Below, in pieces: positions 9,465 to 26,111 of a DNA stretch of 64,000 nt. The translations under genes were made by a program, and so were the position numbers. The notes under the pieces were generated by a model, which was not told the origin of the DNA, searched no databases, and saw only the letters and a program-made list of their open reading frames with translations. Positions within the stretch are counted from its first letter, which is position 1. The number at the start of each line of letters is the position of its first letter. The stretch is taken from positions 257,673 through 321,672 of the forward strand of contig JAJPKF010000020.1 of the NCBI GenBank assembly GCA_021323865.1, in the 5' to 3' direction. Source of the stretch: Pseudomonadota bacterium. GTDB lineage: Bacteria; Chloroflexota; UBA5177; JAJPKF01.

Positions 9465-9860
9465 CGCCGCGGCGAGCCATTCGGGGCGTACATCCTCCGC
9501 TCTCGAGTCGCCCGGCTCATGGCCCAGCCGGCCACATTTGACAACCTTCATCGGCTGCTGCTAGCATCCGGGGTTGTCCTGATTGACAATTGCGGCCAGG
9601 CGAACGCCACCCGTAGTGAGGCGGATGAGGGGAGTCGTTGCGACCCAATGTGGAGGCGGTTGGCCAGCCGGGTTTGCGCATTCTTGTCATGCATGTTCGG
9701 GCCCTCGTTCTCTGCCATCGCCCCTTGAGCGTCTTGTGCCGATCTTGGGCATGAGCCGAGCCCGCCTGAGGGAGGCGGCCACTGCCGCCATGACGTCATG
9801 CGCACTTACCGCTCCGTCGTACCAATCGACCAGACATATCCTTGGAACTGGAGACGAATA

Positions 9861-12249: not shown

Positions 12250-13050
12250 ATGACGGAATTTCACGACCAAGATCTATCAGGCGCCACCTTTGAGCGCGTG
12301 AACCTCACGGATGCAAGGTTTACCAGAGTTGACTTCAGCGGCGCGGTGATACGTGGCAGCCTGCTGGAAGGAGTCCGGCTTCGTGGGGCCGAGCTGATTG
12401 ACGTGGAGATCAGCGCCGAGCTGCAGAACGTGGTCGTGAATGGCGTCAATATCGCGCCGCTCATCGACGCGGAGTTGAATCGGCGGATGCCCGAGCGGGC
12501 GAAGATGCGCCCCGAAAGTCCTGAGGCGTTTCGGGAGGCGTGGGCCATCCTCGAAGGGTTGTGGGCCGGAACCATTGAGCGTGCCCGTACCTTCCCGGAA
12601 GAGACACTGCATCAGAGCGCGAACGGCGAATGGTCCTTCATCCAAACCCTTCGGCACCTGAACTTTGCCACTGCCGCCTGGGTGGAACGGATGGTCCTCG
12701 GCAACCGCTCTCCCTGGCACCCGCTGGACCTCCCCTGGGACGAGGCTCCGGGTTGGGAGGGCATTCCCTGGGACCGGGAGGCTCGACCTTCCCTCGATGA
12801 GGTGCTGGCGGTCCGCGGTCGACGCCAGGCCACAGTGGCCCGGGTCCTCGCTTCCCTGACGCAAGAGCAGCTTGCCTCCGAGGTGACCCGGACAGAGCCC
12901 GGCTGGCCGCAAGTCGAGACCTTTCCGTTCAAGGAGTGTCTCCTCATCGTGATTAACGAGGAGTGGGAGCACCGACTCTATGCGGAACGCGATCTTACCG
13001 TCCTCGAAAAAGAGGCGCCGGAATCGCGGCGCGCATTCCCCACATCCTGA
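12250..13050 (+). CDS. Fusion protein: N-terminal pentapeptide repeats + C-terminal DinB_2/DUF664-like domain
   Basis: ATG at 12250 preceded by GGAGAC. N-terminus [47 protein letters not shown] (A(D/N)LxG pentapeptides). C-terminus [24 protein letters not shown]...[18 protein letters not shown] is DinB_2-like. Confidence 0.7.
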
Positions 13051-13104
13051 GCCTGGCGATGGGGCACACGGCCAATGCCGCCGCAGATAAGGTCGACCAA
13101 TCGG

Positions 13105-13520
13105 TCTCGCATATCGCCGACAGCCATGACTTCATCCGGGTGCAGGGACCACGAGAGAACAACCTCCAAGACGTGAGCATCGACATCCCCAAGCGCCGTC
13201 TGACGGTGTTCACGGGCGTCTCGGGCTTGGGCAAGAGCTCGCTGGTGTTCGATACCATAATCCCAGCGGCTGATCAATGAAACCTACAGCGCGTGCGTGC
13301 AGGGCTTTATGCCGGCGCTGACGCGACCGGATGTCGACGTGCTCGAGGGCCTGACCACCGTCATCAGGGATCAGCAGCGCATGGGGGCTGATCCACGCTC
13401 CACGTCGGGACCGCCACAGACGCGAACGCCATGCTACGTATCCTCTTCAGCCGCTTGGGGCGGCCCCACGTGGGGCCTCCCAATGCCTTCTCCTTCAATA
13501 CCCCCCTCGGTGCGCGCCGT
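13105..13520 (+). pseudogene. Remnant of a uvrA-like (excinuclease ABC subunit A family, possibly the short UvrA2/DrrC-type paralog) gene: N-terminal ~150 codons spread over three frames, remainder deleted
   Basis: Frame a: [45 protein letters not shown] (UvrA N-terminal Walker A). Frame b after a shift near 13262: [45 protein letters not shown] (matches UvrA ...SLSAYARQFL..KPDVDSIEGLSPAISIDQK..RNPRST). Frame c after a shift near 13400: NAMLRILFSRLGRPHV..NAFSFNTP (UvrA ...YDYLRLLFARVG.PHC...LFSFN). Similarity then ends ~13520 and the next gene begins at 13676. Confidence 0.6.
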
Positions 13521-13675
13521 GGGGGCCATCACCGTCGAACGGGGCCATCGCGGCACGGGGTTTCCAATCGGCTCGGGCTCAATGTGCCGCATCGACAGGC
13601 GTACTGCGAATCCCGCAGTCTCGTAACGGTTTCCGTAACGAATCTTGGACGCCACTTCGATAGACTGACGATGAA

Positions 13676-15424
13676 ATGGCGGCAGGACTTCGAGTTTCGC
13701 GGCTTCCGATATTCCGCAAGAGAGCGGGGTCGGAACCCGTCCCGTCCGCGGCTCCCCAAATGTCGGCGAAGTCGGTCATTGAACCGCTCGACATCGCGCC
13801 GAACGATCCGCTGCTGGCCTACTTGGTGTCGTCCCCCGGCGCCGTGGACATCCAGCAGTTGGAGCTGGATTCACCCGCCGTACGGTCGATGAAGGCAGCG
13901 GGCATCAAGCTGGCCGTGCCGCTGGTCTCTCAGGGTGAGCTTATCGGCATGCTGAATCTCGGGCAACGAATGAGTGAACAAGAGTACTCATCCGACGATC
14001 GCGCATTGCTGAACAATCTCGCTGCTCAAGCCACCCCGGCATTGCGAGTGGCCCAGCTGGTTCGCCAGCAACAGGCGGAAGCCAAGGAGCGGCAGCGCAT
14101 CGAACAGGAGCTACAAGTCGCGCGGCTCATCCAGCATACGCTCCTTCCCAAGAACCTCCCACAGGTTGAGGGTTGGCACGTCGCAGCGCACTACCAGCCC
14201 GCACGGGCCGTCGGCGGTGACTTTTACGATTTCATCGAAATGGAGGATGGTCGGCTGGGGCTCGTCGTCGGAGATGTTACGGACAAGGGAGTTCCCGCCG
14301 CACTGGTCATGGCGACCACTCGCAGCGTGCTGCGAGCAGCGGCGGAATCCATGGCCCGCCCGGGCGAGGTCCTGCGACAAGCCAATAACAAGCTGTGTCC
14401 CGACATTCCAGAAAACATGTTCGTCACCTGTCTGTTTGCCCTCCTCGATCCGGTTGAAGGTCGGCTCGTCTACGCCAACGCCGGCCACGACGCGCCCTAT
14501 CAGCGATCCGAGGCGGGCGTGGTCGAGCTGCGAGCTCGCGGTATGCCGCTCGGTCTCATGCCCGATATGGAGTATGAGGAGCTTGAGACCCAGCTGGCTC
14601 CGGGCGATGCCATCCTCTTCTACAGCGATGGGTTGGTTGAAGCACACAACTCAAACCGGGAAATGTTCAGCTTTCCGCGGTTGCGCGAGCTGCTTGCTCG
14701 GCACGTCATGTCGACGCCGGACGAGCTCGTTGACTTCCTGCTCGACAACCTGGCTCGCTTCACCGGACGTGAATGGGATCAGGAAGACGACATCACCTTG
14801 GTCACGCTCCAGCGCGTGCACAATGTCGCTCGCCACACGGCATTTGCCACGAGCATGCTGGAGGAGGTCGAACCGCCTCCGAGCGACGAGACCCAGGCTG
14901 CATATGGCGAGGAGACGCCTGGCACGGACGCAAGCGGCAAGGCGAGTTCCACAGATGCTCCGATGTCTGCCGTTCGACCCGCCGACGACGGGGCGATCTG
15001 GGACAGGATCACAAAGTTCGAAATCGCCAGCCGGCCAGGAAATGAGCGCGTCGCAATTGAGCGAGTGCGCGAGGCGTTAAGAAGCGTCGATCTTCCGGCC
15101 CGAACATGTGAGCGTTTGGAGACGGCGGTAGGCGAGGCGACGATGAATGCCATGGAGCACGGCAACAAGTATCAGTCCGATGTCACCGTCGTCATTTGCG
15201 TCGAGCTTTCTCCCCGAGCGATTCGGATCGGAGTTACAGACCAGGGGGAACCGATCCCCCTCGAGACTGAGGAGCCTGACCTAGAGCTGAAGCTGGCCGG
15301 GATGCAGAGCCCCCGCGGCTGGGGCATGTTTCTCATCAAAAACATGGTGGACGACATGCAGGTGGTGGACGATGCGGTCGGCCATACCCTGCAGCTGACT
15401 GTTCACCGGGAAAGGAGCCACTGA
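13676..15424 (+). CDS. Fused partner-switching regulator: partial GAF + PP2C (SpoIIE/RsbU-type) phosphatase + C-terminal RsbW/SpoIIAB-like HATPase (anti-sigma-factor-type Ser kinase) domain; real start possibly ~13760 (MSAKSV..)
   Basis: GAF C-terminal half ...GIKLAVPLVSQGELIGMLNLGQR. PP2C motifs LQVARLIQHTLLP, GGDFYDF, GLVVGDVTDKGVPAAL, DAILFYSDGLVEA. HATPase_c ...ETAVGEATMNAMEHGN...VVICVEL...RIGVTDQGEP....GWGMFLIKNMVDDMQV. Confidence 0.75.
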   Translation: MAAGLRVSRLPIFRKRAGSEPVPSAAPQMSAKSVIEPLDIAPNDPLLAYLVSSPGAVDIQQLELDSPAVRSMKAAGIKLAVPLVSQGELIGMLNLGQRMSEQEYSSDDRALLNNLAAQATPALRVAQLVRQQQAEAKERQRIEQELQVARLIQHTLLPKNLPQVEGWHVAAHYQPARAVGGDFYDFIEMEDGRLGLVVGDVTDKGVPAALVMATTRSVLRAAAESMARPGEVLRQANNKLCPDIPENMFVTCLFALLDPVEGRLVYANAGHDAPYQRSEAGVVELRARGMPLGLMPDMEYEELETQLAPGDAILFYSDGLVEAHNSNREMFSFPRLRELLARHVMSTPDELVDFLLDNLARFTGREWDQEDDITLVTLQRVHNVARHTAFATSMLEEVEPPPSDETQAAYGEETPGTDASGKASSTDAPMSAVRPADDGAIWDRITKFEIASRPGNERVAIERVREALRSVDLPARTCERLETAVGEATMNAMEHGNKYQSDVTVVICVELSPRAIRIGVTDQGEPIPLETEEPDLELKLAGMQSPRGWGMFLIKNMVDDMQVVDDAVGHTLQLTVHRERSH

Positions 15425-15786
15425 TGGCTAATGAGCCTCTTGAAGTAACGGTTCGCCGGCTCCCGGCCCTGACGGTTCTGGACCTCGAGGGAGAGATCAA
15501 CGGCTTGGCCGAGTCACGACTCAATCACGCTTACGCAGACGCGGAGGGTGCAGGGCCACGGACCGTATTGCTCAATTTTTCGGGCGTGGACTATATCAAC
15601 AGTACCGGCATCGCCCTGATCGTCAGCCTGCTCGGACGCGCACGAGCGAGTGGTCGCGAGCTGCGCGCCTGTGGCCTCAGCGAGCACTATGTCGAGATTT
15701 TCAACATCACCCGGCTGGCCGACTTCATGTCCGTGTTTCCGAATGAGGAAGCAGCAGTCAGTGAGGCTGCTCTGGGCGCCGGATAG
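15424..15786 (+). CDS. STAS-domain anti-sigma-factor antagonist (SpoIIAA/RsbV-like)
   Basis: LTVLDLEGEINGLAESRLNHAY...VLLNFSGVDYINSTGIALIVSL...RELRACGLSEHYVEIFNITRL is the STAS fold with its phosphorylatable Ser/Thr region. ATGA overlap with the upstream gene. Confidence 0.8.
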   Translation: MANEPLEVTVRRLPALTVLDLEGEINGLAESRLNHAYADAEGAGPRTVLLNFSGVDYINSTGIALIVSLLGRARASGRELRACGLSEHYVEIFNITRLADFMSVFPNEEAAVSEAALGAG

Positions 15787-15848
15787 AGGAAGAGGCGCCC
15801 CCGGGATCCGCGTCAGCTACCACACCACTGTGCAAACGAGAGGAAACC

Positions 15849-16193
15849 ATGGACCAAACACAGACGTTCGGCGTCCGGGCAACTGAGGGTGCAGCGGTCA
15901 TCGACATCACCGGCGAACTCAATGCCTCGAGCGACCCCGCACTTTCCGATGCCTATGCCCAGGCGTCCGAGCTGAGCGGGCTGATCCTCCTCAACTTCGC
16001 GGGTCTCGAGTACATGAATAGCTCGGGCATTGGCCTCCTCGTTACGCTGCTCATTCGGGCCAATCGGCAGAAGAAGCGCCTCGCGATCTGCGGCCTGTCT
16101 GACCACTACCGGCATATCTTCCAGATCACGAAGCTCGACGATGCGATGAAGATCTATGAAACCGAAGCGGACGCGTTAGGGAGCGATCGATAG
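15849..16193 (+). CDS. Second STAS-domain anti-sigma-factor antagonist
   Basis: AAVIDITGELNASSD...LILLNFAGLEYMNSSGIGLLVTL...KRLAICGLSDHYRHIFQITKL; paralog of 15424-15786. Confidence 0.8.
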   Translation: MDQTQTFGVRATEGAAVIDITGELNASSDPALSDAYAQASELSGLILLNFAGLEYMNSSGIGLLVTLLIRANRQKKRLAICGLSDHYRHIFQITKLDDAMKIYETEADALGSDR

Positions 16194-16236
16194 CGGCGTC
16201 CACTGACGGACGCCGAAGACCAAGTGGAGGATAACC

Positions 16237-17013
16237 ATGACCGAAAGCCGAGAGCAAAGAGCCTCGCAGATACCTCGTGACGCGGCCAACTGGGCGACAC
16301 AAACTGATGCCGTCAGGCTGTCGGCGGTCCCAACCGGGGCCCGGAATCTCAACGTAGAAGGGAAGCAGGCAGTCGGTCCACTTCAGGGCTTCGGACCAAT
16401 GTGGCAAAAGACCTACCGTGTCCGTCTCCAGGGAAGCGACGCCACGCCCAAGGATGTCATCGCGGCCTGGAAGGAGAACTTCCCCAAATTCTGGCCGCCG
16501 GGCAACACGTTCTATGCGCCGCTCACCGGCATTGCTCCAGGAGAGGCGGCCTTGATCAACTCCTCACTGCCTGGAGGAATGCCGCTCTCGACGGGGGTGA
16601 TGGTGCTCTACGCGGACGATGAGTCATTCACCCTGATGACCACCCAGGGCCATCCCTTCTCCGGTTGGGTGACCTTCAGCGCGACCGTCGAGTCGGAGGG
16701 AGGTATGACGTGCACCGTGGCCCAAGCGCAGGTGCTGATGCGCGCCAATGACCCACTTTATGCGGTTGGCATGCGGTTCGGCGGCCATAAGCAAGAGGAC
16801 CGCATCTGGGAGTGGACGCTGGCCTCCGTAGCGAAGCACTTCGGCGTCGAAGCGCAGGTCGACACCAATTGCCAGTGTGTCGACCGGAGGCCCCAGTGGA
16901 GGCGGGCGGGAAACATCTGGTACAACGCCGGAATTCGGTCGGGCATGTACGTGATGACGACGCCCGTGCGCTTCGTCGCGCGGCCATTCTCCCGTCCTCG
17001 CACGGGCGCATAG
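16237..17013 (+). CDS. Hypothetical soluble protein (no family recognised)
   Basis: 258-codon ORF with coding-like codon usage and a GGAGGATAACC RBS-like sequence upstream. No motif I can name. Confidence 0.5.
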   Translation: MTESREQRASQIPRDAANWATQTDAVRLSAVPTGARNLNVEGKQAVGPLQGFGPMWQKTYRVRLQGSDATPKDVIAAWKENFPKFWPPGNTFYAPLTGIAPGEAALINSSLPGGMPLSTGVMVLYADDESFTLMTTQGHPFSGWVTFSATVESEGGMTCTVAQAQVLMRANDPLYAVGMRFGGHKQEDRIWEWTLASVAKHFGVEAQVDTNCQCVDRRPQWRRAGNIWYNAGIRSGMYVMTTPVRFVARPFSRPRTGA

Positions 17014-17339: not shown

Positions 17340-18536
17340 ATGATGGTCAAACCGGCAAACAGGCCACGTCTCTGGGTGCCGGTCTGGTTCATCACTGCCG
17401 CCACCGGAACCGCCGTCTGGATCGCAGGCCCGATCGTGGAGTGGACGCGTCTGCAGACCGTTTGTCACCATGAGTCTCGCTGCTTGAACACGCAGCTCAA
17501 CGTCATGGCCGCGCGGACCCTCACGCAGCACCACGTCTCGCTCGTGGACTACGCGTTGGGTTCGTTCGCCATGCTGGCCCTTCTCTGGGTCCTCTGGTAC
17601 GGGCTTGCGGCCCTCCTGGTGTTCAAACGTCCCGAGGACAGGGGCGCACTGCTGGCGGCCTTCTTCTTGGTCATCTTTCCGATGTGGGAGTACAGCGATC
17701 TCGTGCCCTGGTGGGGATGGCTCGGAGGAGTCTTCGTGGGAGTGCTGCTGCTCTTCGCCCTGATCTTCCCAGACGGGAGATTTCAGCCGCCCTGGACCAA
17801 GTGGCTTGCCGTCGCAGTAGCGTTGTTCTTCGGCCTCAACTTTCTGTCATCGCTCTCCTTCCTGAATGGGCCTCTGGGACTGGTCATGTTCGTTGGTCTG
17901 GTTGCGCTGGTGGTCGTCGCCCAGGTGCACCGGTTTCGGACCGTGTCGTCCTGGTCCGAGCGTCAGAGAACGAAGTGGGCCGTGTTGGGTCTGACAGCGG
18001 CCGTTGCCGGGGTGATGACCACCTGGCTCCTCGGCTCAATCCTGCCAATCCCAACCGGATCCGGCTCGATCTTCAGCGCTGTCGACAACCAGGTGGGCAC
18101 CGCTATGGTGATGTCGGTCATCCCAGTCTCGATGGCCGTGGCCGTCCTCCGGAACCGATTGTGGGACATTGACCGAGTCATGAGTCGGGCTCTGGCCTAT
18201 GCCGTCCTGACAGCCGTGGTCATCGGCGTCTACGTCGGGAGCGTGGTCGGGCTTCAGTCTCTCTTGGCGCTCTTCGCTCACAACGGCTCGCCCGTCGCCA
18301 TCGGGCTCTCGACTCTCGCCATCGTCGCCCTGTTTGGCCCGCTGCACAGGCGGATCCAGCGCACCGTCGAGCGAAGGTTCTACCGGGCCCGCTACGACGC
18401 GGCTCGTACGGTGGCTGCTTTCGGGGAGCGCCTTCGAGACCAAGTTGATCTTGAACAGCTTAGTCACGGCCTGACCGGTGTTGTCCGGGACACTCTTCAT
18501 CCCGAGCATGTGTCGCTTTGGCTGCGCCAGACGTGA
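17340..18536 (+). CDS. Paralog P1 of the seven-member array of ~10-TM membrane proteins (conserved C-x5-C ectoloop; C-terminal RRFYRARYDAARTV...HPEHVSLWLR tail)
   Basis: GGAGG then ATG. TM1, then TVCHHESRCLNTQLNV, then ~9 more hydrophobic helices with conserved loops RPEDRGA, FPDGRFQPPWTKW, HRFRTVSSWSERQRTKWA, LRNRLWDIDRV, then the tail. Followed by hairpins. Confidence 0.8.
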   Translation: MMVKPANRPRLWVPVWFITAATGTAVWIAGPIVEWTRLQTVCHHESRCLNTQLNVMAARTLTQHHVSLVDYALGSFAMLALLWVLWYGLAALLVFKRPEDRGALLAAFFLVIFPMWEYSDLVPWWGWLGGVFVGVLLLFALIFPDGRFQPPWTKWLAVAVALFFGLNFLSSLSFLNGPLGLVMFVGLVALVVVAQVHRFRTVSSWSERQRTKWAVLGLTAAVAGVMTTWLLGSILPIPTGSGSIFSAVDNQVGTAMVMSVIPVSMAVAVLRNRLWDIDRVMSRALAYAVLTAVVIGVYVGSVVGLQSLLALFAHNGSPVAIGLSTLAIVALFGPLHRRIQRTVERRFYRARYDAARTVAAFGERLRDQVDLEQLSHGLTGVVRDTLHPEHVSLWLRQT

Positions 18537-18678: not shown

Positions 18679-19923
18679 ATGAGCACTCGGAGCGTATCGA
18701 CTGCTGACCTGTCGCCGCGGACGGCTCGAATCGCCCAGATTGTGTGCCTTGTGTTGATCGCCGGAGGGGTCGCCCTGCTCGTGGCTGCCCTCGTCTGGAT
18801 GTGGCCTGGCATGGTCCACCCATGCGCACGGCTTACGACGTGTCAGCAATACCAGCTTGACTCGGCATCGGCCCAATTCCTGAGCCGGCACGACATCAGC
18901 CTCAGCGCTTATGCAACCGGCCTTGCCTTCCTCCTGATCCTCACCACGCTCGTATGGTACGCGCTGGCGGCTTTGATCCTCTGGAAGCGGCCCGGAGACC
19001 GGGGCGCAATCGTGGCGGCCTTTTTCCTTGCCCTGTTTCCTCAGCTCCCGCTTGGCACAATTACCAACTGGGATGCTGGAGCCGACGCCTCTATTGGGCT
19101 GGTAGCGCTGATCATCTTCGGTCTCCTGTTTCCGGACGGTCACTTCAAGCCCCGATGGACCCGGTGGTGGGCACTCGGGGTCTTCGTCATGCTTGTGGCC
19201 ATTTCATTTACTCCAGGTTCCAGCAGCGGGAACGGGAACTTCCTGTGGGTCGTCCCCGTCCTTGTGCTTCCCGCCGCCGTGGTCGGGACGCAGATTTACC
19301 GGTATCGCAAGTTGTCGACGTGGTCTGAGCGTCAACGCTCGAAGTGGGCGTTCTTCGGCATTATTTCAGGGATTCTGGGTATCATCCTCGTCTTTGTTAC
19401 CGGCACGATCACCCAGCCTTCGACCACGGCCGGAATGGGCGGCGGCGACCTGTCGGGACTCTGGGTCAGCGCCGGAATCGTTATCTTTCCGCTCGCCATT
19501 CCCGTCTCGATCACCATCGCGCTGCTTCGGAGCAACCTATGGGACATTGACCACATCATCAGTCGGGCTCTGGCCTACGCCGTCTTGAGCGCGGTCATCG
19601 TGGGGGCGTACATCGGTGGCGTTGTCGGCCTCCAGTCCCTCTTCGCGCTGTTCGCCCACAACGGCTCGCCGGCGGCCATCGCCCTATCGACGCTCGCAAT
19701 CGTGGCACTCTTCGGCCCAATGCTCAGACGCATCCAGCGCATTGTGGACCGAAGGTTCTATCGGAGCCGGTATGACGCCGCCCGCACGGTTGCCACCTTC
19801 GGCGAGCGGCTGCGTGACCAGGTCGATCTGGGCCAGCTTTCCTCCGGCTTGACCGCCGTTGTCCATGAGGCCCTTCATCCGGAGCATGTATCGTTGTGGC
19901 TCCGAGAGATGAGGGAAGGGTGA
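18679..19923 (+). CDS. Paralog P2 of the membrane-protein array
   Basis: CARLTTCQQYQLDSASAQFL..., RPGDRGA, FPDGHFKPRWTRW, YRYRKLSTWSERQRSKWA, LRSNLWDIDHIISRALAYAVLSAVIVGAYIGGVVGLQSLFALFAHNGSP, DRRFYRSRYDAARTVATFGERLRDQVDLGQLSSGLTAVVHEALHPEHVSLWLREMREG. Confidence 0.8.
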   Translation: MSTRSVSTADLSPRTARIAQIVCLVLIAGGVALLVAALVWMWPGMVHPCARLTTCQQYQLDSASAQFLSRHDISLSAYATGLAFLLILTTLVWYALAALILWKRPGDRGAIVAAFFLALFPQLPLGTITNWDAGADASIGLVALIIFGLLFPDGHFKPRWTRWWALGVFVMLVAISFTPGSSSGNGNFLWVVPVLVLPAAVVGTQIYRYRKLSTWSERQRSKWAFFGIISGILGIILVFVTGTITQPSTTAGMGGGDLSGLWVSAGIVIFPLAIPVSITIALLRSNLWDIDHIISRALAYAVLSAVIVGAYIGGVVGLQSLFALFAHNGSPAAIALSTLAIVALFGPMLRRIQRIVDRRFYRSRYDAARTVATFGERLRDQVDLGQLSSGLTAVVHEALHPEHVSLWLREMREG

Positions 19924-21113
19924 CGGACAGGCAGAAGATATTCGCACTCCGCGCCGTCTGGTCCGCGGTCGCCATCGGGGTTTCAGTCGTCTGGGCTCAA
20001 GCCTTCACCGCCGGCATCGGCCGACTAATGTCGGTGTGTCATGTCGCCTCCGCATGCTCGAGCTATCAGCTCGATGGCCCGGCGTCCCGTGTGCTTACGG
20101 ACCATGGCATCCCGCTCGCCCTCTATGCCGGCATCACGGCTGTAGTCACAGTCGGAGCCTGGCTGGTCTGGTTTGGGCTGGGGGTCCTGCTGGTCTGGAG
20201 GAGACCGCGGGATCGCGGAGCCTACATCTCGGCGCTGTTCCTTGCCGTCTTTCCCCTGATGTTCGCGTCGCTTTGGGCGGCGACGACGGCGCAAACGAAG
20301 CTCTTCTCCGGAATCGCCATCTTCTCGCTGATTCCACTCCTGCTGCTGTTTCCGAACGGCCGGTTCGTCCCGCGCTGGACCTGGGTATTCCTCACCTTCG
20401 TTTCGATCCTGGTGGCCTACGGTCAACTGACGAGGGGGCACTTGTTGCACAAGGCCCTCGGCCCGTTCGGAGCCGTCATTGTCCTCCTGATTGCGATGGG
20501 CCTGCAGATTCATCGATTTCGCTCCATATCATCGTGGCGGGAGCGCCAGCAGACGAAGTGGGCCACACTGGGGCTCTGTGCCTGCGTCATCGGCTTCGCC
20601 GCGACGCTGCTGCCCATACTCATCGGCAAGGTCGCTACGAATTCGCTCTACTCAGACTTCGTCGACATCCTTCTCGCCCTCACCACATCGGCCATTCCCA
20701 TCACCTTAGCGATCGCCGTCCTGAGGAGCGGGCTCTGGGACGTTGACCACATCATCAGTCGGGCTCTGGCCTACGCCGTCTTGAGCGCGGTCATCGTGGG
20801 GGCGTACATCGGTGGCGTTGTCGGCCTCCAGTCCCTCTTCGCGTTATTCGTGCACAATGGCTCTCCGCCGGCGATCGCCCTGTCGACACTCGCCATCGTC
20901 GCTTCGTTTGGTCCACTCCGGAGACGGATCCAGCACGTCGTTGACCGGCGCTTCTACCGAAGCCGGTACGATGCCTCGCTCACATTGGCCGCCTTCGGCA
21001 AGCGGCTTCGGGATCAGGTCGATCTCGGAGAGCTCTCTCATGACCTGACGGGTGTTGTTCACGAGACCCTGCACCCTGAGCACGTTTCGCTGCGGCTGCG
21101 AGCTCCAGGATGA
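19920..21113 (+). CDS. Paralog P3 of the membrane-protein array (GTG start overlapping the P2 stop, GTGA)
   Basis: VTDRQKIFALRAV...SVCHVASACSSYQLDGPASRVL..., RPRDRGA, FPNGRFVPRWTW, HRFRSISSWRERQQTKWA, LRSGLWDVDHIISRALAYAVLSAVIVGAYIGGVVGLQSLFALFVHNGSP, DRRFYRSRYDASLTLAAFGKRLRDQVDLGELSHDLTGVVHETLHPEHVSLRLR. Confidence 0.8.
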   Translation: MTDRQKIFALRAVWSAVAIGVSVVWAQAFTAGIGRLMSVCHVASACSSYQLDGPASRVLTDHGIPLALYAGITAVVTVGAWLVWFGLGVLLVWRRPRDRGAYISALFLAVFPLMFASLWAATTAQTKLFSGIAIFSLIPLLLLFPNGRFVPRWTWVFLTFVSILVAYGQLTRGHLLHKALGPFGAVIVLLIAMGLQIHRFRSISSWRERQQTKWATLGLCACVIGFAATLLPILIGKVATNSLYSDFVDILLALTTSAIPITLAIAVLRSGLWDVDHIISRALAYAVLSAVIVGAYIGGVVGLQSLFALFVHNGSPPAIALSTLAIVASFGPLRRRIQHVVDRRFYRSRYDASLTLAAFGKRLRDQVDLGELSHDLTGVVHETLHPEHVSLRLRAPG

Positions 21114-22282
21114 GAGCGACAGTCGAAGCTGTCTTGCGCCGGCACTCGCGGCTGCTGGCCCGGTTGGTATGGGTCGCACTGACCGCGATCGTTCTAGCCG
21201 TCTTCGTCTCGCAAATTCCGGAGGAGTGGAGCTCCCTCGCGACCGTCTGCCGCGGAGCGGCTGCCTGTGCGAATCGGGGCGGTCTCGACGCGTCGGCGGC
21301 TCACACCCTCATCCGACACGGCATTTCCCTACCGGTCTTTGCGTCGCTCATCGTCATGTTCTCGACCACCGTGCTCGCGATATGGGTCCTCCTGGGTGGC
21401 CTCATCGTGTGGCTCAAGCCCGACGATCGAGGAGCCCTGGTCGCTGCTTACTTTCTGGCCGTCTTTCCCCTGTTGCTCGATTCACAGATCCCGCTCGCCG
21501 TCACCTTCACGGCCCTGATTCTCTTTGGCCTGCTGTTTCCTGACGGACACTTCCAGCCTGGGTGGGCGAGATGGCTGGCTGCGGCCGCGCTTGTCGGCGC
21601 CGCCGCTTCCCCATTTGCCGGTGCCCCCGCCGGCATCGCTTCTCTGGTCCTGCTTCTGGCAGCGATCCCGCTCCAAATCTACCGCTTTCGGAAGGTGTCG
21701 ACCTGGGAGCAACGCCAGCAAACCAAGTGGGCCGTCTTCGGGCTAACCGCGACCGTGCTCGGCTTCATTGTGCTGCTGCCGATCTTCAAATTCGGAGCCG
21801 GCTCCCTGGGCGGCGTACTTCTCCAGAACCTCGGCTTCATTACCGTTATCACGATAATGCCGGTCTCCATGGCCCTGTCCGTGCTTCGGAACCGCCTGTG
21901 GGATATCGACCGGATCATCAGCCGCGCCCTGGGCTATGCCCTCCTGAGCGCGGTCACCGTGGGCGCATACGTCGGAGGTGTCGTCGGCTTCCAGTCACTC
22001 TTTGGGCTGTTCGCTCACGACGGCTCCCCTGTTGCCATTGCCCTGTCCACCCTGGCAATTGTGGCGCTGTTTGGCCCCCTGCGCAGACGCATCCAGCAAA
22101 TTGTCGATCGACGGTTCTATCGAAGTAGATACGATGCGTCCCGCACACTCGCCACTTTCGGCGAGCGGCTGCGTGACCAGGTCGATCTGGGCCAGCTTTC
22201 CTCCGGCTTGACCGCCGTCGTCCATGAGGCCCTTCATCCGGAGCATGTATCGTTGTGGCTCCGAGAGATGAGGGAAGGGTGA
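21110..22282 (+). CDS. Paralog P4 of the membrane-protein array (ATGA overlap with P3)
   Basis: TVCRGAAACANRGGLDASAAHTL, KPDDRGA, FPDGHFQPGWARW, YRFRKVSTWEQRQQTKWA, LRNRLWDIDRIISRALGYALLSAV, DRRFYRSRYDASRTLATFGERLRDQVDLGQLSSGLTAVVHEALHPEHVSLWLREMREG (3' end nearly identical to P2 at DNA level). Confidence 0.8.
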   Translation: MRATVEAVLRRHSRLLARLVWVALTAIVLAVFVSQIPEEWSSLATVCRGAAACANRGGLDASAAHTLIRHGISLPVFASLIVMFSTTVLAIWVLLGGLIVWLKPDDRGALVAAYFLAVFPLLLDSQIPLAVTFTALILFGLLFPDGHFQPGWARWLAAAALVGAAASPFAGAPAGIASLVLLLAAIPLQIYRFRKVSTWEQRQQTKWAVFGLTATVLGFIVLLPIFKFGAGSLGGVLLQNLGFITVITIMPVSMALSVLRNRLWDIDRIISRALGYALLSAVTVGAYVGGVVGFQSLFGLFAHDGSPVAIALSTLAIVALFGPLRRRIQQIVDRRFYRSRYDASRTLATFGERLRDQVDLGQLSSGLTAVVHEALHPEHVSLWLREMREG

Positions 22283-22411
22283 CGGACACGCAAAAGATAT
22301 TCGCACGCCGTGCCGAGCACCTACATGGGGAACTGGACAACGACCGGCTGTCCAAGGAGCTCTGGTCTGGGCCTTGCACCCCGCGTCAGTCTCCATCACG
22401 TTGAGGGAGCC

Positions 22412-23650
22412 ATGAGGCCTGTCCGACTAGACGCAAGGAGGAGCCGCTTCCGAGGAGTGCGTCACGAGCGGGCGGTGCAGGCACTGTGGCTTGCGATGGC
22501 GCTGTTCGGCAGCGCTCTGTGGGCTGGCATTCCAATCTCTCAGTGGGGCCGCCTACTGCGCGTGTGCCGGCCCGTCTCAACCTGTGCCCAGTTTCAGCTC
22601 GACGCAGCCTCCGCTGGCCTCCTCCAGCAGCGCGGGGTCTCGCTCGACGATTACGCGATGTTTACGGGCATCGTTCTCGCCACAGGCTGGACGATCTGGT
22701 ACGGCATGTCGGCGCTCGTCATCTATCGCAAGCCCGGGGAGCGGGCAGCGTTGATATCCGCCTTCTTTCTCTTGGTCATGCCCCTGGCAGCCGTCGCCCT
22801 CTGGGTTTCGTGGGGGCTGCTTCTAGCCCTGGCCTCTCTCGCGGCGCTGAACCTCTTTGGCCTCCTGTTCCCCGACGGACGATTCTCACCCCGTTGGACC
22901 CGCTGGCTGGGGATAGGCGTGGTGGCGGCATGCGGTTTCTTGGCGATTCCGGTCTTCGCCAACTCGTCGTTTTATTGGGTCATCCCGCTTTTCGTCGTTC
23001 CGCTTCTCATAGCCGCGCTTCAGATCTATCGGTTCCGCGCCATTTCCTCGTGGCGTGAGCGTCAGCGTAGCAAGTGGGTCTTTCTGGGCCTCGGGACCGG
23101 TCTGGCGGCTTTCCTTTCCATCATCGTCACCCTGAATTTCGTTGGGGCCGGTAATAGTAGCAACGGCACCTTGGGCGGTGGCACGCTGGCGGGTGCACTG
23201 GTAACTCCCGTGTTTGTAATCGGCATCGGCCCGGTGCCGCTTTCAATAGGCATTGCGATTTTGCGCAGCGGCCTCTGGGACATAGATAGGGTGGTTAGTC
23301 GCGCACTGGGGTACTCAGTGTTGACCGTGATCCTCGGGGCTATCTACATCGGCGGAGTGATTGGCCTCCAGGGACTGATCGGCTTGATCGCCGGAAACGG
23401 CTCAGCCGCGGCCGTCGTACTGTCGACGCTAGTGGTGGCCGCTCTCTTTGGCCCACTCCGTCGCCGCCTCCAGAATCTTATCGATAGCCGCTTTTACAGG
23501 TCCCAGTATGACGCCGCGCGAATGGTCAGGAGCTTTGCCGAGCAACTACGGGACGAAGTAGACGTAGACCGGCTCTCAACCGACTTGTCCTCGATCGTGC
23601 GCCAGGCCCTCCATCCTTCACACGTCTCGCTTTGGCTTAGGGAGCAATGA
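22412..23650 (+). CDS. Paralog P5 of the membrane-protein array (ATG at 22412 after GAGGGAGCC; the ORF-track start at 22310 is probably too early)
   Basis: RVCRPVSTCAQFQLDAASAGLL, KPGERAA, FPDGRFSPRWTRW, YRFRAISSWRERQRSKWV, LRSGLWDIDRVVSRALGYSVLTV, DSRFYRSQYDAARMVRSFAEQLRDEVDVDRLSTDLSSIVRQALHPSHVSLWLREQ. Confidence 0.75.
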   Translation: MRPVRLDARRSRFRGVRHERAVQALWLAMALFGSALWAGIPISQWGRLLRVCRPVSTCAQFQLDAASAGLLQQRGVSLDDYAMFTGIVLATGWTIWYGMSALVIYRKPGERAALISAFFLLVMPLAAVALWVSWGLLLALASLAALNLFGLLFPDGRFSPRWTRWLGIGVVAACGFLAIPVFANSSFYWVIPLFVVPLLIAALQIYRFRAISSWRERQRSKWVFLGLGTGLAAFLSIIVTLNFVGAGNSSNGTLGGGTLAGALVTPVFVIGIGPVPLSIGIAILRSGLWDIDRVVSRALGYSVLTVILGAIYIGGVIGLQGLIGLIAGNGSAAAVVLSTLVVAALFGPLRRRLQNLIDSRFYRSQYDAARMVRSFAEQLRDEVDVDRLSTDLSSIVRQALHPSHVSLWLREQ

Positions 23651-24846
23651 CATACATCGTCTCGGAGCAGCGCTGGAGACAGGTCGCCTGGCTACTCCTC
23701 GCGCTTTGGGGCGCGGTATTGTGGCTCGCGGGCCCTGCCTCACAGTCGCTGAGAATCCGGTCGATTTGTCGCCCTCTCTCCTGTAGCTCCTATCAGCTGG
23801 GTGCGCCGGCCGCCTCGACGCTCTCCGGCCACGGCATATCCCTCACGGCCTATGCCGTCTTCACTGTCCTCGTCCTGGGCTTCTTATCCGTCGTCTGGTA
23901 TGGCCTGGCCGGACTCATCATCCTGCGCGAGCCGGACAACCGGGGGGCGGTCATGGCCGCCTTCTTCCTCGTCGCCTTCCCGCTCTTGGAGGTCGCGACC
24001 TGGATCCCAAGCGCACCGTCAGGGCTGAAGAGCCTATTACCGGCGACCGGCGTCGCGGTGCTCCTGCTCTTCTGTCTCCTGTTCCCGGATGGCACCTTCG
24101 CTCCCGGTTGGGCCCGATGGCTCGTGCCTTTGGCTCTGGCGGGAGGTCTCTCGGCCTATCTGCCTCTGCTCCCGCGAGGCGTCGTCCTGGCCATCGCGCT
24201 GGCGTCGGTGGTGGCTGCCCAGGTTGCTCGCTTCCGGACGATATCATCCTCGGCTCAGCGTCAGCAGACCAAGTGGGCGCTCTATGGTGTGATCGCGGCC
24301 GCCGTTGCCTTCGCCACGCTGGCGGCGGGATTCCTGGTCGTGCCTGCCGCTCAGACCGGACCCGGCGGACTATACCGAAGCTTCGCGAACAGCACCGGTC
24401 TCGCCCTGGCAGCGTCCCCAATTCCCATAAGCACCGGCATCGCCATCTTGCGCTACCACCTGTGGGACATCGACCGCGTCGTCAGCCTCACCCTCGGCTA
24501 TGCGCTCCTGACGGCGATGTTGGCGGGTCTTTACATCGCCGGCGTCATCCTCCTGGAACAGCTCGTCCAGGTCTTCACGCCCAGTGGCTCTGACGCCCCC
24601 ATTGCGCTGTCGACGCTTACGGTCGTGGCCCTGTTTGGACCGCTGCGGCGCCGAATCCAGACGGGTATTGACCGGTACTTCTATCGTGCGAAGTACGATG
24701 CCGCGCGCACCTTGGCGGCCTTCGGCGACCGGCTTCGACGTGAAGTCGATTTGGATGCCGTGAGCCGCGACCTCACCGGCGTGGTCGAAGAAGCGCTCAG
24801 GCCCGAGCGAGTAACGCTCTGGGTGCGCACCGAGGCAAAGTCGTGA
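23647..24846 (+). CDS. Paralog P6 of the membrane-protein array (ATGA overlap with P5)
   Basis: SICRPLSCSSYQLGAPAASTL (C-x4-C variant), EPDNRGA, FPDGTFAPGWARW, ARFRTISSSAQRQQTKWA, LRYHLWDIDRVVSLTLGYALLTA, DRYFYRAKYDAARTLAAFGDRLRREVDLDAVSRDLTGVVEEALRPERVTLWVR. Confidence 0.75.
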   Translation: MTYIVSEQRWRQVAWLLLALWGAVLWLAGPASQSLRIRSICRPLSCSSYQLGAPAASTLSGHGISLTAYAVFTVLVLGFLSVVWYGLAGLIILREPDNRGAVMAAFFLVAFPLLEVATWIPSAPSGLKSLLPATGVAVLLLFCLLFPDGTFAPGWARWLVPLALAGGLSAYLPLLPRGVVLAIALASVVAAQVARFRTISSSAQRQQTKWALYGVIAAAVAFATLAAGFLVVPAAQTGPGGLYRSFANSTGLALAASPIPISTGIAILRYHLWDIDRVVSLTLGYALLTAMLAGLYIAGVILLEQLVQVFTPSGSDAPIALSTLTVVALFGPLRRRIQTGIDRYFYRAKYDAARTLAAFGDRLRREVDLDAVSRDLTGVVEEALRPERVTLWVRTEAKS

Positions 24847-26111
24847 GTCGCCGTTCCAGTTTCCTTTGGGCTCGTCGCGGAGAGGTCGCTGGCGTGAGTA
24901 GCGGGAACGGGGCCTCGGGACGCATGTTTGGCCGGGAGACGGAGCTCGGCATCAGAGTGGCCTGGGCGCTGGTGGCGAGCGCCGTTACCATCACCTGGGC
25001 AGTGGCCGTGGCGGCTCAATGGAAATCGCTGACCTCGGTATGTCATCGAGCATCCAGCTGCACGAACTTCCAGATGGACGAGGCCACCGCCCATCTGTTG
25101 GCCGCCCACGGCATTCAGCCGGAAGTGTACGGGGTGTACACCGCTCTGGGGCTGGCACTGGTGTGGGCGGTATGGTGTGGACTTGGTGGACTGATCGTCT
25201 GGCGGCGCCCGCGAGAGGTGGGAGCCGTGGTATCCGCCTTCTTCATGGTCCTCTTCCCGCTGTTCGAGATCAGCTTTTGGTTTCCCAGCGGCAACGGCTC
25301 CCAGCTCATGGGAGCCGTTGCGTTCCTGGCGTTAACCATGTTCTACCTGCTCTTCCCCAATGGCAGCTTCGCCCCACGCTGGTTTCGCTTCGTCCCCATC
25401 GCCCTCATTCCTTTAGGGCTGATTTCCAACTTCCTGCCATGGCTCCTCGGGCCGATGCTCCTCGTGTTTTTCCTCAGTGTTTCTGGCAGTCAGATTTATC
25501 GCTTCCGCATGGTGTCCTCTTGGAAAGAGCGACAGCAGACCAAGTGGACAGTGGCCGGCCTGTTGGTTTCCATACTGCTGTTTGTCGCCGTGGCGGTGGT
25601 CCCATTCAGCGTGGATCCAAAGGTTGGGTATTCAGGCACCGGATATGAGGTGCTCACCATCACCCTGGTGCCGATTGTCACGACGCTCATTCCGCTCTCC
25701 GTGGGGGCGGCCATCTTTCGCAGCGGCCTTTGGGATATCGACCGCATCATCAACCGCGCTCTCGTTTACGGCGTCCTCAGCATCGCGCTGGCCGTCGCCT
25801 ATGTGGGCGGCGTTCTGGGGCTCGAGGCGCTGTTCAGACTCTTCATACGGGGCAGCGCGGCGCCAGCGATCGTCGTTTCGACGCTCGCCATTGCCGCCCT
25901 CTTCGGGCCGCTTCGACGGCGAATTCAGGATGCCATCGACCGGCGCTTCTATCGAGCCAGATACGACACCGCCCGAATCCTTTCCGCCTTCGGTGACCGG
26001 CTTCGGCAGGAGGTGGACCTGATGAATCTCACGCAGGACATGACCTCGGTAGTACAGGAGACGCTGCGTCCAGAGCACGTGTCGATTTGGCTGAGCGGGG
26101 AGATGTCATGA
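24843..26111 (+). CDS. Paralog P7 of the membrane-protein array (GTGA overlap with P6; an alternative ATG at 24927 is possible)
   Basis: SVCHRASSCTNFQMDEATAHLL, RPREVGA, FPNGSFAPRWFRF, YRFRMVSSWKERQQTKWT, FRSGLWDIDRIINRALVYGVLSIA, DRRFYRARYDTARILSAFGDRLRQEVDLMNLTQDMTSVVQETLRPEHVSIWL. Confidence 0.75.
   Translation: MSRRSSFLWARRGEVAGVSSGNGASGRMFGRETELGIRVAWALVASAVTITWAVAVAAQWKSLTSVCHRASSCTNFQMDEATAHLLAAHGIQPEVYGVYTALGLALVWAVWCGLGGLIVWRRPREVGAVVSAFFMVLFPLFEISFWFPSGNGSQLMGAVAFLALTMFYLLFPNGSFAPRWFRFVPIALIPLGLISNFLPWLLGPMLLVFFLSVSGSQIYRFRMVSSWKERQQTKWTVAGLLVSILLFVAVAVVPFSVDPKVGYSGTGYEVLTITLVPIVTTLIPLSVGAAIFRSGLWDIDRIINRALVYGVLSIALAVAYVGGVLGLEALFRLFIRGSAAPAIVVSTLAIAALFGPLRRRIQDAIDRRFYRARYDTARILSAFGDRLRQEVDLMNLTQDMTSVVQETLRPEHVSIWLSGEMS

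What the first reader, a model, noticed from the sequence alone, without database searches (positions are those of the whole stretch)
13676..16193. Self-contained partner-switching module immediately upstream of the array: a single protein fusing a PP2C phosphatase to an RsbW-like kinase, plus two STAS antagonists, with no sigma factor in sight
In canonical RsbU/RsbV/RsbW or SpoIIE/SpoIIAA/SpoIIAB systems the PP2C phosphatase and the HATPase anti-sigma kinase are separate, opposing proteins, and the kinase sequesters a sigma factor. Here both activities sit in one 582-aa polypeptide behind a partial GAF domain. Two tandem STAS paralogs follow, ATGA-coupled to it. No sigma-factor gene lies within ~20 kb on either side. 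The output therefore may not be a sigma factor; given its position, the adjacent membrane-protein array is a candidate target or input. The GAF domain looks N-terminally truncated (only its C-terminal half is present), and the gene abuts the uvrA remnant. A deletion may therefore have removed its original 5' end.
Basis: partly seen in the sequence, partly recalled or inferred. Interest (0 to 1): 0.6.

Follow-up and report, generated by a model that had tools for sequence, protein, structure and literature searches.

The report
Two-piece membrane sensor phosphatase-kinase switch
The fused phosphatase-kinase with two small partner proteins is real and of a known kind, but its "truncated" sensor domain is the conserved second half of a domain whose first half sits at the end of each neighbouring membrane protein, which points to an undescribed way of plugging several sensors into one signalling enzyme.

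Summary
ORF 13676-15424 encodes a partial GAF, an intact PP2C phosphatase and an intact RsbW-type kinase. Two STAS genes follow, each keeping the phosphorylatable serine. No sigma-factor gene is visible in the window.

Fused phosphatase-kinases are already known (HsbR, CrsR, SypE, Rv1364c).

The "truncation" is not a deletion. Thousands of homologues about 550 aa long start at the same point.

In 40 orthologous loci from Chloroflexota and Actinomycetota, the gene order is enzyme, STAS, STAS, then a 255-aa START-fold protein. 32 of the 40 also carry 1-10 copies of the array-type membrane protein, often translationally coupled directly upstream. 22 carry a BTAD/AAA/TPR regulator.

Natural single-chain fusions exist. 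In P0427, array protein 1 matches residues 50-428 and the enzyme matches residues 446-940. A profile of such fusions aligns to solved GAF domains as one unit, with the array tail as helix 1 plus strand 1.

My best reading is a GAF domain split between interchangeable membrane sensors and one soluble phosphatase-kinase that sets STAS phosphorylation. Physical complementation and the output are inferred, not shown.

The parts
13676..15424 (+). PPK: bifunctional regulator made of the GAF remainder, a long linker helix, a PP2C phosphatase and an RsbW-type Ser kinase. 582 aa; an alternative start at 13760 gives 554 aa.
   Evidence: Pfam and NCBIfam. More than 8000 homologues, typically about 550 aa, with the same domains. 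Best solved match is 3KE6 Rv1364c. AF2 model pLDDT 81.5.
13787..14143 (+). GAF remainder (two short helices and one beta-hairpin) plus the linker helix that runs into the PP2C domain.
   Evidence: GAF_2 matched only over profile positions 79-135 of 136. AF2 gives H17-24, H39-46, E51-57, E60-66 and H78-128 in 554-aa numbering. This is the most conserved block of the family. It is continuous with the array-type tail in natural fusions.
14246..14815 (+). PP2C/SpoIIE phosphatase domain.
   Evidence: PF07228, E 2.7e-55, full profile length. Metal-binding Asp motifs are invariant. Aligned to Rv1364c, SiaA, RssB and SpoIIE structures.
15026..15400 (+). HATPase_c_2 (RsbW/SpoIIAB-type) kinase or anti-sigma-like domain.
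   Evidence: PF13581, E 2.9e-21, profile 2-126 of 127. N box, DxG and GxG motifs align with SpoIIAB 1TH8 and are invariant in the family.
15424..15786 (+). STAS1, an anti-sigma-antagonist-type protein with candidate phospho-site Ser60. Its start overlaps the PPK stop by 1 nt (TGATG).
   Evidence: The orthologous group carries the motif VDYINSTGI.
15849..16193 (+). STAS2, the second antagonist paralogue, with candidate phospho-site Ser58.
   Evidence: The orthologous group carries LEYMNS[SG]GI. A second STAS gene is present in 38 of 40 orthologous loci.
16237..17013 (+). P258: conserved fourth gene of the operon. Uncharacterised family of about 255 aa with a START/SRPBCC (helix-grip) fold.
   Evidence: Present directly after the STAS genes in 38 of 40 loci. 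5637 homologues, all 'hypothetical'. AF2 pLDDT 69. Foldseek top hits are PYL/PYR ABA receptors, CoxG and a Bet v 1-fold lyase. Weak DUF1990 match.
17340..18536 (+). Array protein 1. About 8-9 hydrophobic segments followed by a cytoplasmic tail that corresponds to GAF helix 1 plus strand 1 ('...VDLEQLSHGLTGVVRDTLHPEHVSLWLR').
18679..19923 (+). Array protein 2, same architecture.
   Evidence: Its tail DNA is nearly identical to that of array protein 4.
19896..21113 (+). Array protein 3, same architecture.
21110..22282 (+). Array protein 4, same architecture.
22310..23650 (+). Array protein 5, same architecture.
23647..24846 (+). Array protein 6, same architecture.
24843..26111 (+). Array protein 7, same architecture.
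26905..29802 (-). BTAD + AAA_16 + TPR regulator (large SARP/AfsR-like, with a weak N-terminal winged-helix match). Conserved neighbour and candidate transcriptional output.
   Evidence: Pfam. Homologue within 10 kb in 22 of 40 loci, and in 17 of the 25 loci with full flanks.

Best explanation
The three genes are the catalytic core of a conserved, so far uncharacterised partner-switching operon of Chloroflexota and Actinomycetota.

The 582-aa protein (PPK) is a bifunctional enzyme. Its RsbW-type kinase domain phosphorylates a conserved serine on the two STAS proteins, and its PP2C domain removes that phosphate.

PPK is not a truncated protein. It is the soluble half of a two-piece membrane sensor. 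Each array protein supplies a variable multi-pass membrane sensing part and a conserved cytoplasmic tail that is helix 1 plus strand 1 of a GAF domain. PPK starts with the rest of that GAF domain, followed by a long helix into the phosphatase.

I propose that a tail docks into PPK's incomplete GAF (fold complementation in trans). This would tether PPK to one of several alternative sensors. The sensor's state would then pass through the linker helix to shift the phosphatase/kinase balance, as in the coiled-coil-linker model for sensor-PPM phosphatases.

The STAS phosphorylation state is then read by a partner not yet identified. Candidates are the co-conserved BTAD/AAA/TPR transcription regulator, the START-fold protein, or a sigma factor encoded elsewhere and held by the kinase domain.

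Shown here: the domain content, the intact motifs, the operon conservation, the co-localisation, and the homology of array protein plus PPK to single-chain natural fusions. Inferred: physical docking, the direction of regulation, and the output.
For: 1. Intact enzyme and substrates.

2. The N-terminus is a family trait. All 120 best homologues are 433-687 aa long, typically about 550 aa, and 118 of them combine GAF + SpoIIE + HATPase_c_2. They share a start point. In a search with the first 126 residues of the 554-aa form, most of the 150 best representatives match at about residues 30-60 of the target. About 13 match at residues 340-620 of longer, fused proteins.

3. Rosetta stone. In P0427 (947 aa), array protein 1 residues 38-395 align to residues 50-428 (E 2e-40). 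PPK residues 15-546 align to residues 446-940 (54% identity, E 0). The two matches abut with a 17-residue linker. P0467, P0418, P0454 and loci L034, L035 and L038 show the same junction, '...SLWL' - linker - 'DDPL..'.

4. The joined piece is one GAF. A profile of 10 fusions matches solved GAF domains end to end: 5W10 E 1.2e-09 (profile 22-161), 4MCW, 3OOV (chain 2-164 of 169) and 3TRC. The tail aligns to the GAF N-terminal helix and first strand. An artificial tail+PPK chimera extends the Pfam GAF match from profile 52-130 to 1-130 and raises the score from 32.5 to 39.6 bits. AF2 of PPK alone gives only two strands before the linker helix.

5. Genomic linkage in 40 orthologous loci:
- 40 have a STAS gene, 38 have two STAS genes, and 38 have P258.
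- 32 have at least one array gene and 20 have two or more, up to 10.
- 21 of the 25 loci with full 10-kb flanks have an array gene.
- In 17 loci the last array gene ends directly upstream of PPK, with gaps of about -4 to +93 nt.
- Cultured examples: Kribbella sp. (L009), Ktedonobacter racemifer (L010), Blastococcus saxobsidens (L015).

6. Among the seven paralogues the sensing part is variable (identity 0.14-0.5). The last two membrane helices plus the tail are the best conserved part (0.58-0.72). Two tails are homogenised at DNA level.

7. Mechanistic precedent: sensor domain, then crossing helical linker, then PPM dimer (PMC12143880). Bifunctional PP2C-kinase regulators acting on STAS proteins: PMC6482189, PMC7693655.
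Against: No direct evidence exists for a tail-PPK contact. A structure prediction of the pair was not possible.

The GAF here is minimal, and AF2 models PPK's N-terminal elements with fair confidence on their own (pLDDT about 80-89). It might therefore be a stable mini-domain.

In this window the array lies downstream of the operon after a 326-nt gap, not coupled upstream. Four of the 25 loci with full flanks have no array gene within 10 kb.

Pfam detects only the C-terminal half of GAF even in a contiguous fused homologue (protein 4).

The output is unknown. The BTAD gene is absent from 18 of the 40 loci.
Confidence: 0.6

Rival explanations
1. Canonical anti-sigma circuit with a distant sigma factor. 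The kinase domain of PPK sequesters a SigB/SigF-type (or RpoS-like) sigma factor encoded elsewhere, and dephosphorylated STAS releases it. This rival concerns the output only and is compatible with the split-sensor input.
For: The kinase domain is a full-length HATPase_c_2 with matches to SpoIIAB and RsbW. CrsR and HsbR, which have the same PP2C-kinase order, were reported to interact with RpoS (PMC6482189). Rv1364c interacts with SigF in vitro (PMC7693655). Two of 40 loci have a SigB/F-like gene within 10 kb (L050, L007).
Against: No sigma gene is in the window, and none is conserved near the module: 38 of 40 loci lack one. The conserved neighbours are instead a START-fold protein and a BTAD regulator. 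Several RsbW-like domains act only as kinases, for example RsbW2 of M. smegmatis (PMC7693655).
Confidence: 0.35
2. Same pathway, no fold complementation. The array proteins and PPK descend from a fused ancestor and still work together. PPK's N-terminal piece is a self-sufficient mini-domain, and the tails serve only for dimerisation or for another contact.
For: AF2 gives pLDDT 80-89 to PPK residues 11-60 without any partner. In this window and in about 10 other loci the array is not adjacent to PPK. Tail-terminated membrane proteins form a large family (952 hits) that may have other partners.
Against: The split falls inside a single fold: strand 1 is on one protein and the closing hairpin and last helix are on the other. 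The break point is exactly conserved across two phyla. The tail end is the best conserved part of the array paralogues. The array gene is frequently translationally coupled to PPK.
Confidence: 0.25
3. One reading: a self-contained module whose GAF was clipped by a recent deletion next to the uvrA remnant, so the sensor is degenerate.
For: A frameshifted uvrA-like remnant ends about 50 nt upstream. Pfam sees only the C-terminal half of GAF.
Against: The same N-terminus is found in all 120 best homologues and in 40 loci with unrelated upstream genes. The basic leader peptide is present in the 13676 ORF.
Confidence: 0.03
4. The START-fold protein P258 is a ligand-gated regulator of the PP2C domain, analogous to plant PYR/PYL receptors that inhibit clade-A PP2Cs. 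The module would then have a second, small-molecule input.
For: P258 follows the STAS genes in 38 of 40 loci. Its model's best PDB matches are PYL/PYR receptors (E 4.6e-05, target-normalised TM 0.67). PYL binding inactivates PP2Cs (PMC13525633).
Against: The model confidence is moderate (pLDDT 69). The helix-grip fold is very common, and PYL entries are over-represented in the PDB. CoxG and a lyase score almost as well. Sequence identity is 9-16%. No gate or latch motifs were examined.
Confidence: 0.15

Closest known systems
HsbR/HsbA (Pseudomonas aeruginosa) and CrsR/CrsA (Shewanella oneidensis)
   Same: One polypeptide carries a sensor domain, then PP2C, then an RsbW-type kinase/anti-sigma domain, in the same order. 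It sets the phosphorylation state of a STAS antagonist, and the phospho-state selects binding partners (PMC6482189).
   Different: Their input is a receiver domain fed by a phosphorelay. Here it is a GAF remainder apparently completed by separate membrane proteins. They have one STAS partner; here there are two conserved paralogues plus a START-fold protein. Sequence similarity is limited to the domains.
Rv1364c of Mycobacterium tuberculosis (PDB 3KE6)
   Same: It is the best solved match (E 5.5e-18). PP2C and GHKL kinase are in one chain, and both activities act on a STAS domain (PMC7693655, citing Greenstein 2009).
   Different: Rv1364c has an N-terminal PAS domain and a fused C-terminal STAS. 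Here the STAS proteins are separate, although homologue P0011 is fused to a STAS. There is no membrane sensor array.
SypE/SypA of Vibrio fischeri
   Same: A bifunctional kinase and PP2C phosphatase controls a STAS protein, and no sigma factor is known as the target (PMC3610818, PMC10120452).
   Different: Different domain order, with a central receiver domain flanked by the kinase and phosphatase domains (order recalled, not checked in the paper). No GAF and no membrane partner.
RsbU/RsbP/RsbZ-type sensor-PPM phosphatases with a coiled-coil linker
   Same: An N-terminal sensor (including GAF in RsbZ) is joined to the PPM domain by a long helix (PMC12143880). PPK has a 50-residue helix in that position.
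   Different: Those sensors are complete and in the same chain, and the kinase RsbW is a separate protein.
Natural single-chain relatives (P0427, P0467; TM-GAF-PP2C forms such as the Caldilinea aerophila locus L038)
   Same: They have the same membrane family, the same tail, the same GAF remainder and the same PP2C, with or without the kinase, at 54-64% identity in the shared parts.
   Different: They are not split and are not seen with multi-copy arrays. None is characterised.

Membership tests
RsbU/RsbV/RsbW-type partner-switching system | PPM/PP2C phosphatase with the metal-binding aspartates | tested here: met
   PF07228, E 2.7e-55. D154, D172, D290 and D343/D344 are invariant in 34 homologues. 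Aligned to Rv1364c and SpoIIE.
RsbU/RsbV/RsbW-type partner-switching system | GHKL serine kinase/anti-sigma domain with N, G1 and G2 boxes | tested here: met
   PF13581, E 2.9e-21. E..N..HG, DxG and GxG align to SpoIIAB 1TH8 and are invariant. As recalled from memory, B. subtilis RsbW also lacks the second glycine of G1.
RsbU/RsbV/RsbW-type partner-switching system | STAS antagonist with a phosphorylatable serine | tested here: met
   TIGR00377 is above its cutoff for both proteins. Ser60 and Ser58 align with the phospho-Ser of RsbV, TM1442 and SpoIIAA and are conserved in orthologues.
RsbU/RsbV/RsbW-type partner-switching system | A cognate sigma factor encoded with the module | tested here: not met
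   No Sigma70 domain in the window ORFs covered. tblastn with SigB, SigF and RpoE found nothing in the window and a SigB/F-like gene in only 2 of 40 orthologous loci. A distant sigma factor cannot be excluded.
RsbU/RsbV/RsbW-type partner-switching system | Phosphorylation-dependent exchange of binding partners | not testable with these tools
   Needs biochemistry.
HsbR/CrsR-type fused regulators | N-terminal receiver domain | tested here: not met
   No Response_reg match. The N-terminus is a GAF remainder.
HsbR/CrsR-type fused regulators | PP2C followed by a kinase/anti-sigma domain in one chain | tested here: met
   Residues 191-380 and 451-575.
Rv1364c-type multidomain regulators | PAS sensor and a C-terminally fused STAS | tested here: not met
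   No PAS. The STAS genes are separate. One homologue, P0011, has a fused STAS.
GAF domain (complete fold) | N-terminal helix and first strand contiguous with the rest of the sheet in one chain | tested here: not met
   PPK matches only GAF_2 profile positions 79-135. AF2 shows two strands. The missing helix 1 and strand 1 align to the array tails.
PYR/PYL/RCAR-like START receptors (for P258) | Helix-grip fold | tested here: met
   Foldseek probability 1.00, E 4.6e-05, target-normalised TM up to 0.67, on a model with pLDDT 69.
PYR/PYL/RCAR-like START receptors (for P258) | Ligand-gated binding to and inhibition of a PP2C | not testable with these tools
   Sequence identity is 9-16%. Gate and latch loops were not examined.
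SARP/AfsR-like regulators (for 26905-29802) | Winged-helix DNA-binding domain + BTAD, with or without NTPase and TPR | tested here: inconclusive
   BTAD 1.2e-20, AAA_16 3.1e-25 and TPR are clear. Trans_reg_C is only E 0.014.

The most novel reading that the evidence does not exclude
A GAF domain is naturally split between two proteins and reassembles in trans as a plug-in connector. Up to ten alternative membrane sensors, each ending in GAF helix 1 plus strand 1, would compete for or take turns on a single soluble phosphatase-kinase that begins with the rest of the fold. Many inputs would thus be multiplexed onto one STAS phosphorylation switch. That switch would feed a SARP-type regulator rather than a sigma factor, with a PYL-like START protein as a possible second regulator of the PP2C.
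Probability: 0.4. Interest if true: 0.8.

Novelty: new variant of a known kind. Interest (0 to 1): 0.6.

Why it matters
Partner-switching modules are a major bacterial signalling device, but how their phosphatases receive signals is known for only a few cases. Here a very large, unnamed family has a fixed six-part gene set spanning two phyla: more than 8000 enzyme homologues, 5637 START-fold partners and about 950 sensor proteins.

Its membrane sensors and its enzyme share one domain between them. If the halves do reassemble, this would be a natural example of fold complementation used to exchange sensors. It would explain why the sensor genes are amplified into arrays. It would also give a simple, testable system for how a GAF domain drives a PPM phosphatase through its linker helix.

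Two practical points follow for annotation. 'N-terminally truncated GAF' proteins of this type should not be called pseudogenes. The hypothetical membrane proteins ending in '...SLWLR' are sensor halves.

Tried and rejected
Both prediction jobs were then spent on P258 and on PPK alone.
- Two context look-ups with window ORFs failed because the ORF starts differ from the called genes.
- I tested whether the array gene and PPK are joined by stop-codon read-through or frameshifting. In 17 split adjacent loci, only 6 share a frame, which is the chance level. Gaps run from 4-nt overlaps to +93 nt. They are ordinary separate, often coupled genes.
- The promoter/terminator scan of 12.9-27 kb gave no more sites than shuffled sequence.
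- PADLOC gave no defence-system match apart from a generic TPR hit, so a defence reading was dropped.
- Literature searches for a natural split GAF, and for a bacterial START-PP2C or START-STAS link, found nothing.
- 'Pfam sees only half a GAF' was rejected as an argument on its own, because a contiguous fused homologue shows the same partial match.


Full report
**What is at 13676-16193**

The three ORFs exist as described. Pfam results for the 582-aa product are:
- A full-length SpoIIE/PP2C domain at residues 191-380 (E 2.7e-55).
- A full-length HATPase_c_2 domain at residues 451-575 (E 2.9e-21).
- GAF matches restricted to the C-terminal part of the models (GAF_2 positions 79-135 of 136).

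The two small products are STAS proteins, and NCBIfam's anti-sigma-antagonist model scores above its cutoff.

The best solved relative is Rv1364c (3KE6), followed by SiaA, RssB and SpoIIE. SpoIIAB and RsbW match the C-terminal domain.

In alignments of 14 and 34 homologues the catalytic motifs are invariant:
- PP2C metal-binding motifs: GGDFYDF, GDVTDKG, NAGH, SDG, EDD.
- Kinase motifs: N box, DxG, GxG.

STAS1 Ser60 and STAS2 Ser58 sit at the phospho-serine position of RsbV, TM1442 and SpoIIAA. The motif is conserved in two distinct orthologous groups. A pseudo-kinase or a dead phosphatase is therefore unlikely.

- The PPK/STAS1 junction is TGATG, a 1-nt overlap, not ATGA. STAS2 lies 62 nt further on.
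- The public gene call starts at 13760 (554 aa). The 13676 start restores the basic leader peptide seen in the homologues.

**No sigma factor**

No Sigma70 domain was found in the window genes covered: the precomputed gene table for about 3.7-22.1 kb and direct scans of ORFs across 0.4-1.8, 9.8-19.9, 26.2-42.7 and 46.5-47.0 kb. Two short overlapping ORFs upstream were not scanned. The same search did find sigma genes in four other loci, which serves as a positive control.

Only 2 of 40 orthologous loci have a SigB/F-like gene within 10 kb. The lack of a local sigma gene is therefore a property of the family.

**The fusion is a known kind**

- HsbR and CrsR are REC-PP2C-kinase proteins acting on the STAS proteins HsbA and CrsA (PMC6482189).
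- SypE is another bifunctional regulator of a STAS protein (PMC3610818).
- Rv1364c has both activities in one chain (PMC7693655).
- NCBI names members of the present family 'ATP-binding SpoIIE family protein phosphatase'.

**The 'truncated GAF' is not a deletion**

More than 8000 homologues were found. All 120 best are 433-687 aa long, typically about 550 aa, and 118 of them combine GAF, SpoIIE and HATPase_c_2. Those aligned begin, after a short basic peptide, with the block 'DIAPNDPLVAYF...SPAL...VPLVSQGELVGLLNLGPR', the most conserved part of the protein. Their upstream neighbours differ from locus to locus.

The uvrA-like remnant (12963-13626) is therefore incidental.

**The conserved operon**

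I fetched 80 loci from species-representative genomes and added metagenomic contexts. I searched them with the window's proteins. Forty loci hold a full-length orthologue. They include Ktedonobacter racemifer, Kribbella sp., Blastococcus saxobsidens, Gaiellales, Rubrobacter and Acidimicrobiia.

| Feature | All 40 loci | 25 loci with full 10-kb flanks |
|---|---|---|
| At least one STAS gene downstream | 40 | not counted |
| Two STAS genes | 38 | 24 |
| Homologue of the 258-aa protein next | 38 | 25 |
| BTAD/AAA_16/TPR gene | 22 | 17 |
| At least one array-type membrane protein | 32 | 21 |
| Two or more array genes (up to 10) | 20 | not counted |

The window's minus-strand gene 26905-29802 is that BTAD/AAA_16/TPR protein. 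In the window the seven-gene array sits between the 258-aa gene and the BTAD gene. Some relatives carry an FAD amine oxidase at that position.

**The link between the array and the enzyme**

The array proteins have no Pfam domain. All of them end with '...RRFYRxRYDAxRT..F..RLRD.VDL..L...L..VV.E.L.P.HVSLWLR' plus a few residues. About 950 homologues share this form.

One homologue (P0169) continues past that point into the rest of a GAF domain and a histidine kinase. Open frames in loci L034, L035, L038, L083, L085 and L086 continue into 'DDPL..YL....SP....L....VPL.SQGEL.G' and a PP2C domain.

A search of 1.84 billion representatives with the first 126 residues of the 554-aa form gave 8792 hits at E 1e-3 or better. 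Most of the best 150 match near the target's N-terminus (split form). About 13 match at residues 340-620 of proteins 540-1008 aa long. Two of these, P0427 and P0467, are complete single-chain versions: membrane part, tail, GAF remainder, PP2C, kinase.

By BLASTP against P0427:
- Array protein 1 (residues 38-395) covers P0427 residues 50-428 (E 2e-40).
- PPK (residues 15-546) covers P0427 residues 446-940 (54% identity).
- The two matches abut.

A profile built from ten such fusions aligns to solved GAF domains in one stretch, from their first helix to their last. Examples are 5W10 (E 1.2e-09), 4MCW, 3OOV and 3TRC. The tail corresponds to helix 1 and strand 1.

Joining the window's own tail to PPK's N-terminus extends the Pfam GAF match from positions 52-130 to 1-130. 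AF2 of PPK alone shows only two short helices and one hairpin before a 50-residue helix that enters the phosphatase.

**The split is genuine and conserved**

In 17 loci the last array gene ends immediately upstream of PPK, as a separate ORF. The gaps run from 4-nt overlaps to +93 nt. The reading frames agree no more often than chance, so there is no sign of read-through.

Among the window's seven paralogues the N-terminal membrane part is variable. The last two membrane helices plus the tail are the best conserved part. The tails of paralogues 2 and 4 are nearly identical at DNA level over about 135 nt, against about 80% identity upstream.

**Model**

PPK is the soluble catalytic half of a two-piece sensor, and the array proteins are interchangeable sensing halves. 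Docking of a tail would complete the GAF fold. The signal would then pass through the linker helix to the PP2C dimer, following the model of PMC12143880, and shift the kinase/phosphatase balance on the two STAS proteins.

The domain homology, the break point, the operon and the co-localisation are shown. The docking, the direction of regulation and the output are inferred.

**Possible outputs**

The 258-aa protein belongs to a large unannotated family (5637 hits). It is predicted to have a START/helix-grip fold. Its best PDB matches are plant PYL/PYR receptors, which inhibit PP2Cs. The model is of moderate quality and the fold is common, so this is a lead only.

The BTAD/AAA/TPR protein is a plausible transcriptional output. 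A distant sigma factor held by the kinase domain, as reported for CrsR, remains possible.

**Verdict**

The module is a new variant of a known kind of system. The split-GAF coupling to multi-copy sensors is the part worth following up. I found no description of it in the literature searched.

Noticed in passing
window 19790-19950 and 22150-22310: The 3' ends of array genes 2 and 4 are nearly identical at DNA level: about 135 nt with one mismatch, running about 25 nt past the stop codon. The sequence upstream is only about 80% identical. This looks like recent gene conversion of the tail between paralogues.
   Followed up: partly
window 12963-13626: Frameshifted remnant of a UvrA-like gene. The N-terminal 50 residues are intact (best match 7SH1, E 1.5e-29) and the reading frame then breaks several times. 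Only about 650 nt remain of a gene whose solved homologues are 640-993 aa long.
   Followed up: partly
window 16237-17013: A 258-aa protein from a large unannotated family (5637 homologues) with a predicted START/helix-grip fold. Residues 1-54 are highly conserved but modelled with low confidence, as expected for a segment that folds on binding.
   Followed up: partly
window 21110-21113, 23647-23650, 24843-24846 and 19896-19923: Array genes 3/4, 5/6 and 6/7 overlap by 4 nt, and genes 2/3 overlap by 28 nt. The array is probably one translationally coupled transcription unit.
   Followed up: no
proteins P0361, P0437, P0449, P0463, P0472, P0475, P0479: Giant proteins of 1800-3950 aa carry 9-19 tandem copies of a GAF segment about 30% identical to the PPK N-terminus.
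   Followed up: no
protein P0011: A 63%-identical homologue of 687 aa has a STAS2-type domain fused to its C-terminus. This gives the PP2C-kinase-STAS order of Rv1364c. It could be a true fusion or an assembly frameshift.
   Followed up: no
proteins P0121, P0168, P0214: Some gene calls run from the end of one array copy straight into the next. Tandem array copies are therefore sometimes in frame without a stop, or are two-sensor fusions.
   Followed up: no
window 9798-11921: A 707-aa protein built of three long internal repeats of about 220 aa each, with a weak PA14 match (E 0.0016) and an N-terminal hydrophobic segment.
   Followed up: no
window 16194-16216: A 7-bp GC-rich hairpin (GGCGTCC-ACTGAC-GGACGCC) lies just after the STAS2 stop codon and has no T run. 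It might modulate read-through into the 258-aa gene.
   Followed up: no
loci L003, L004, L005: In several relatives an FAD-dependent amine oxidase gene of about 475 aa follows the 255-aa START-fold gene. In the window the array occupies that position.
   Followed up: no
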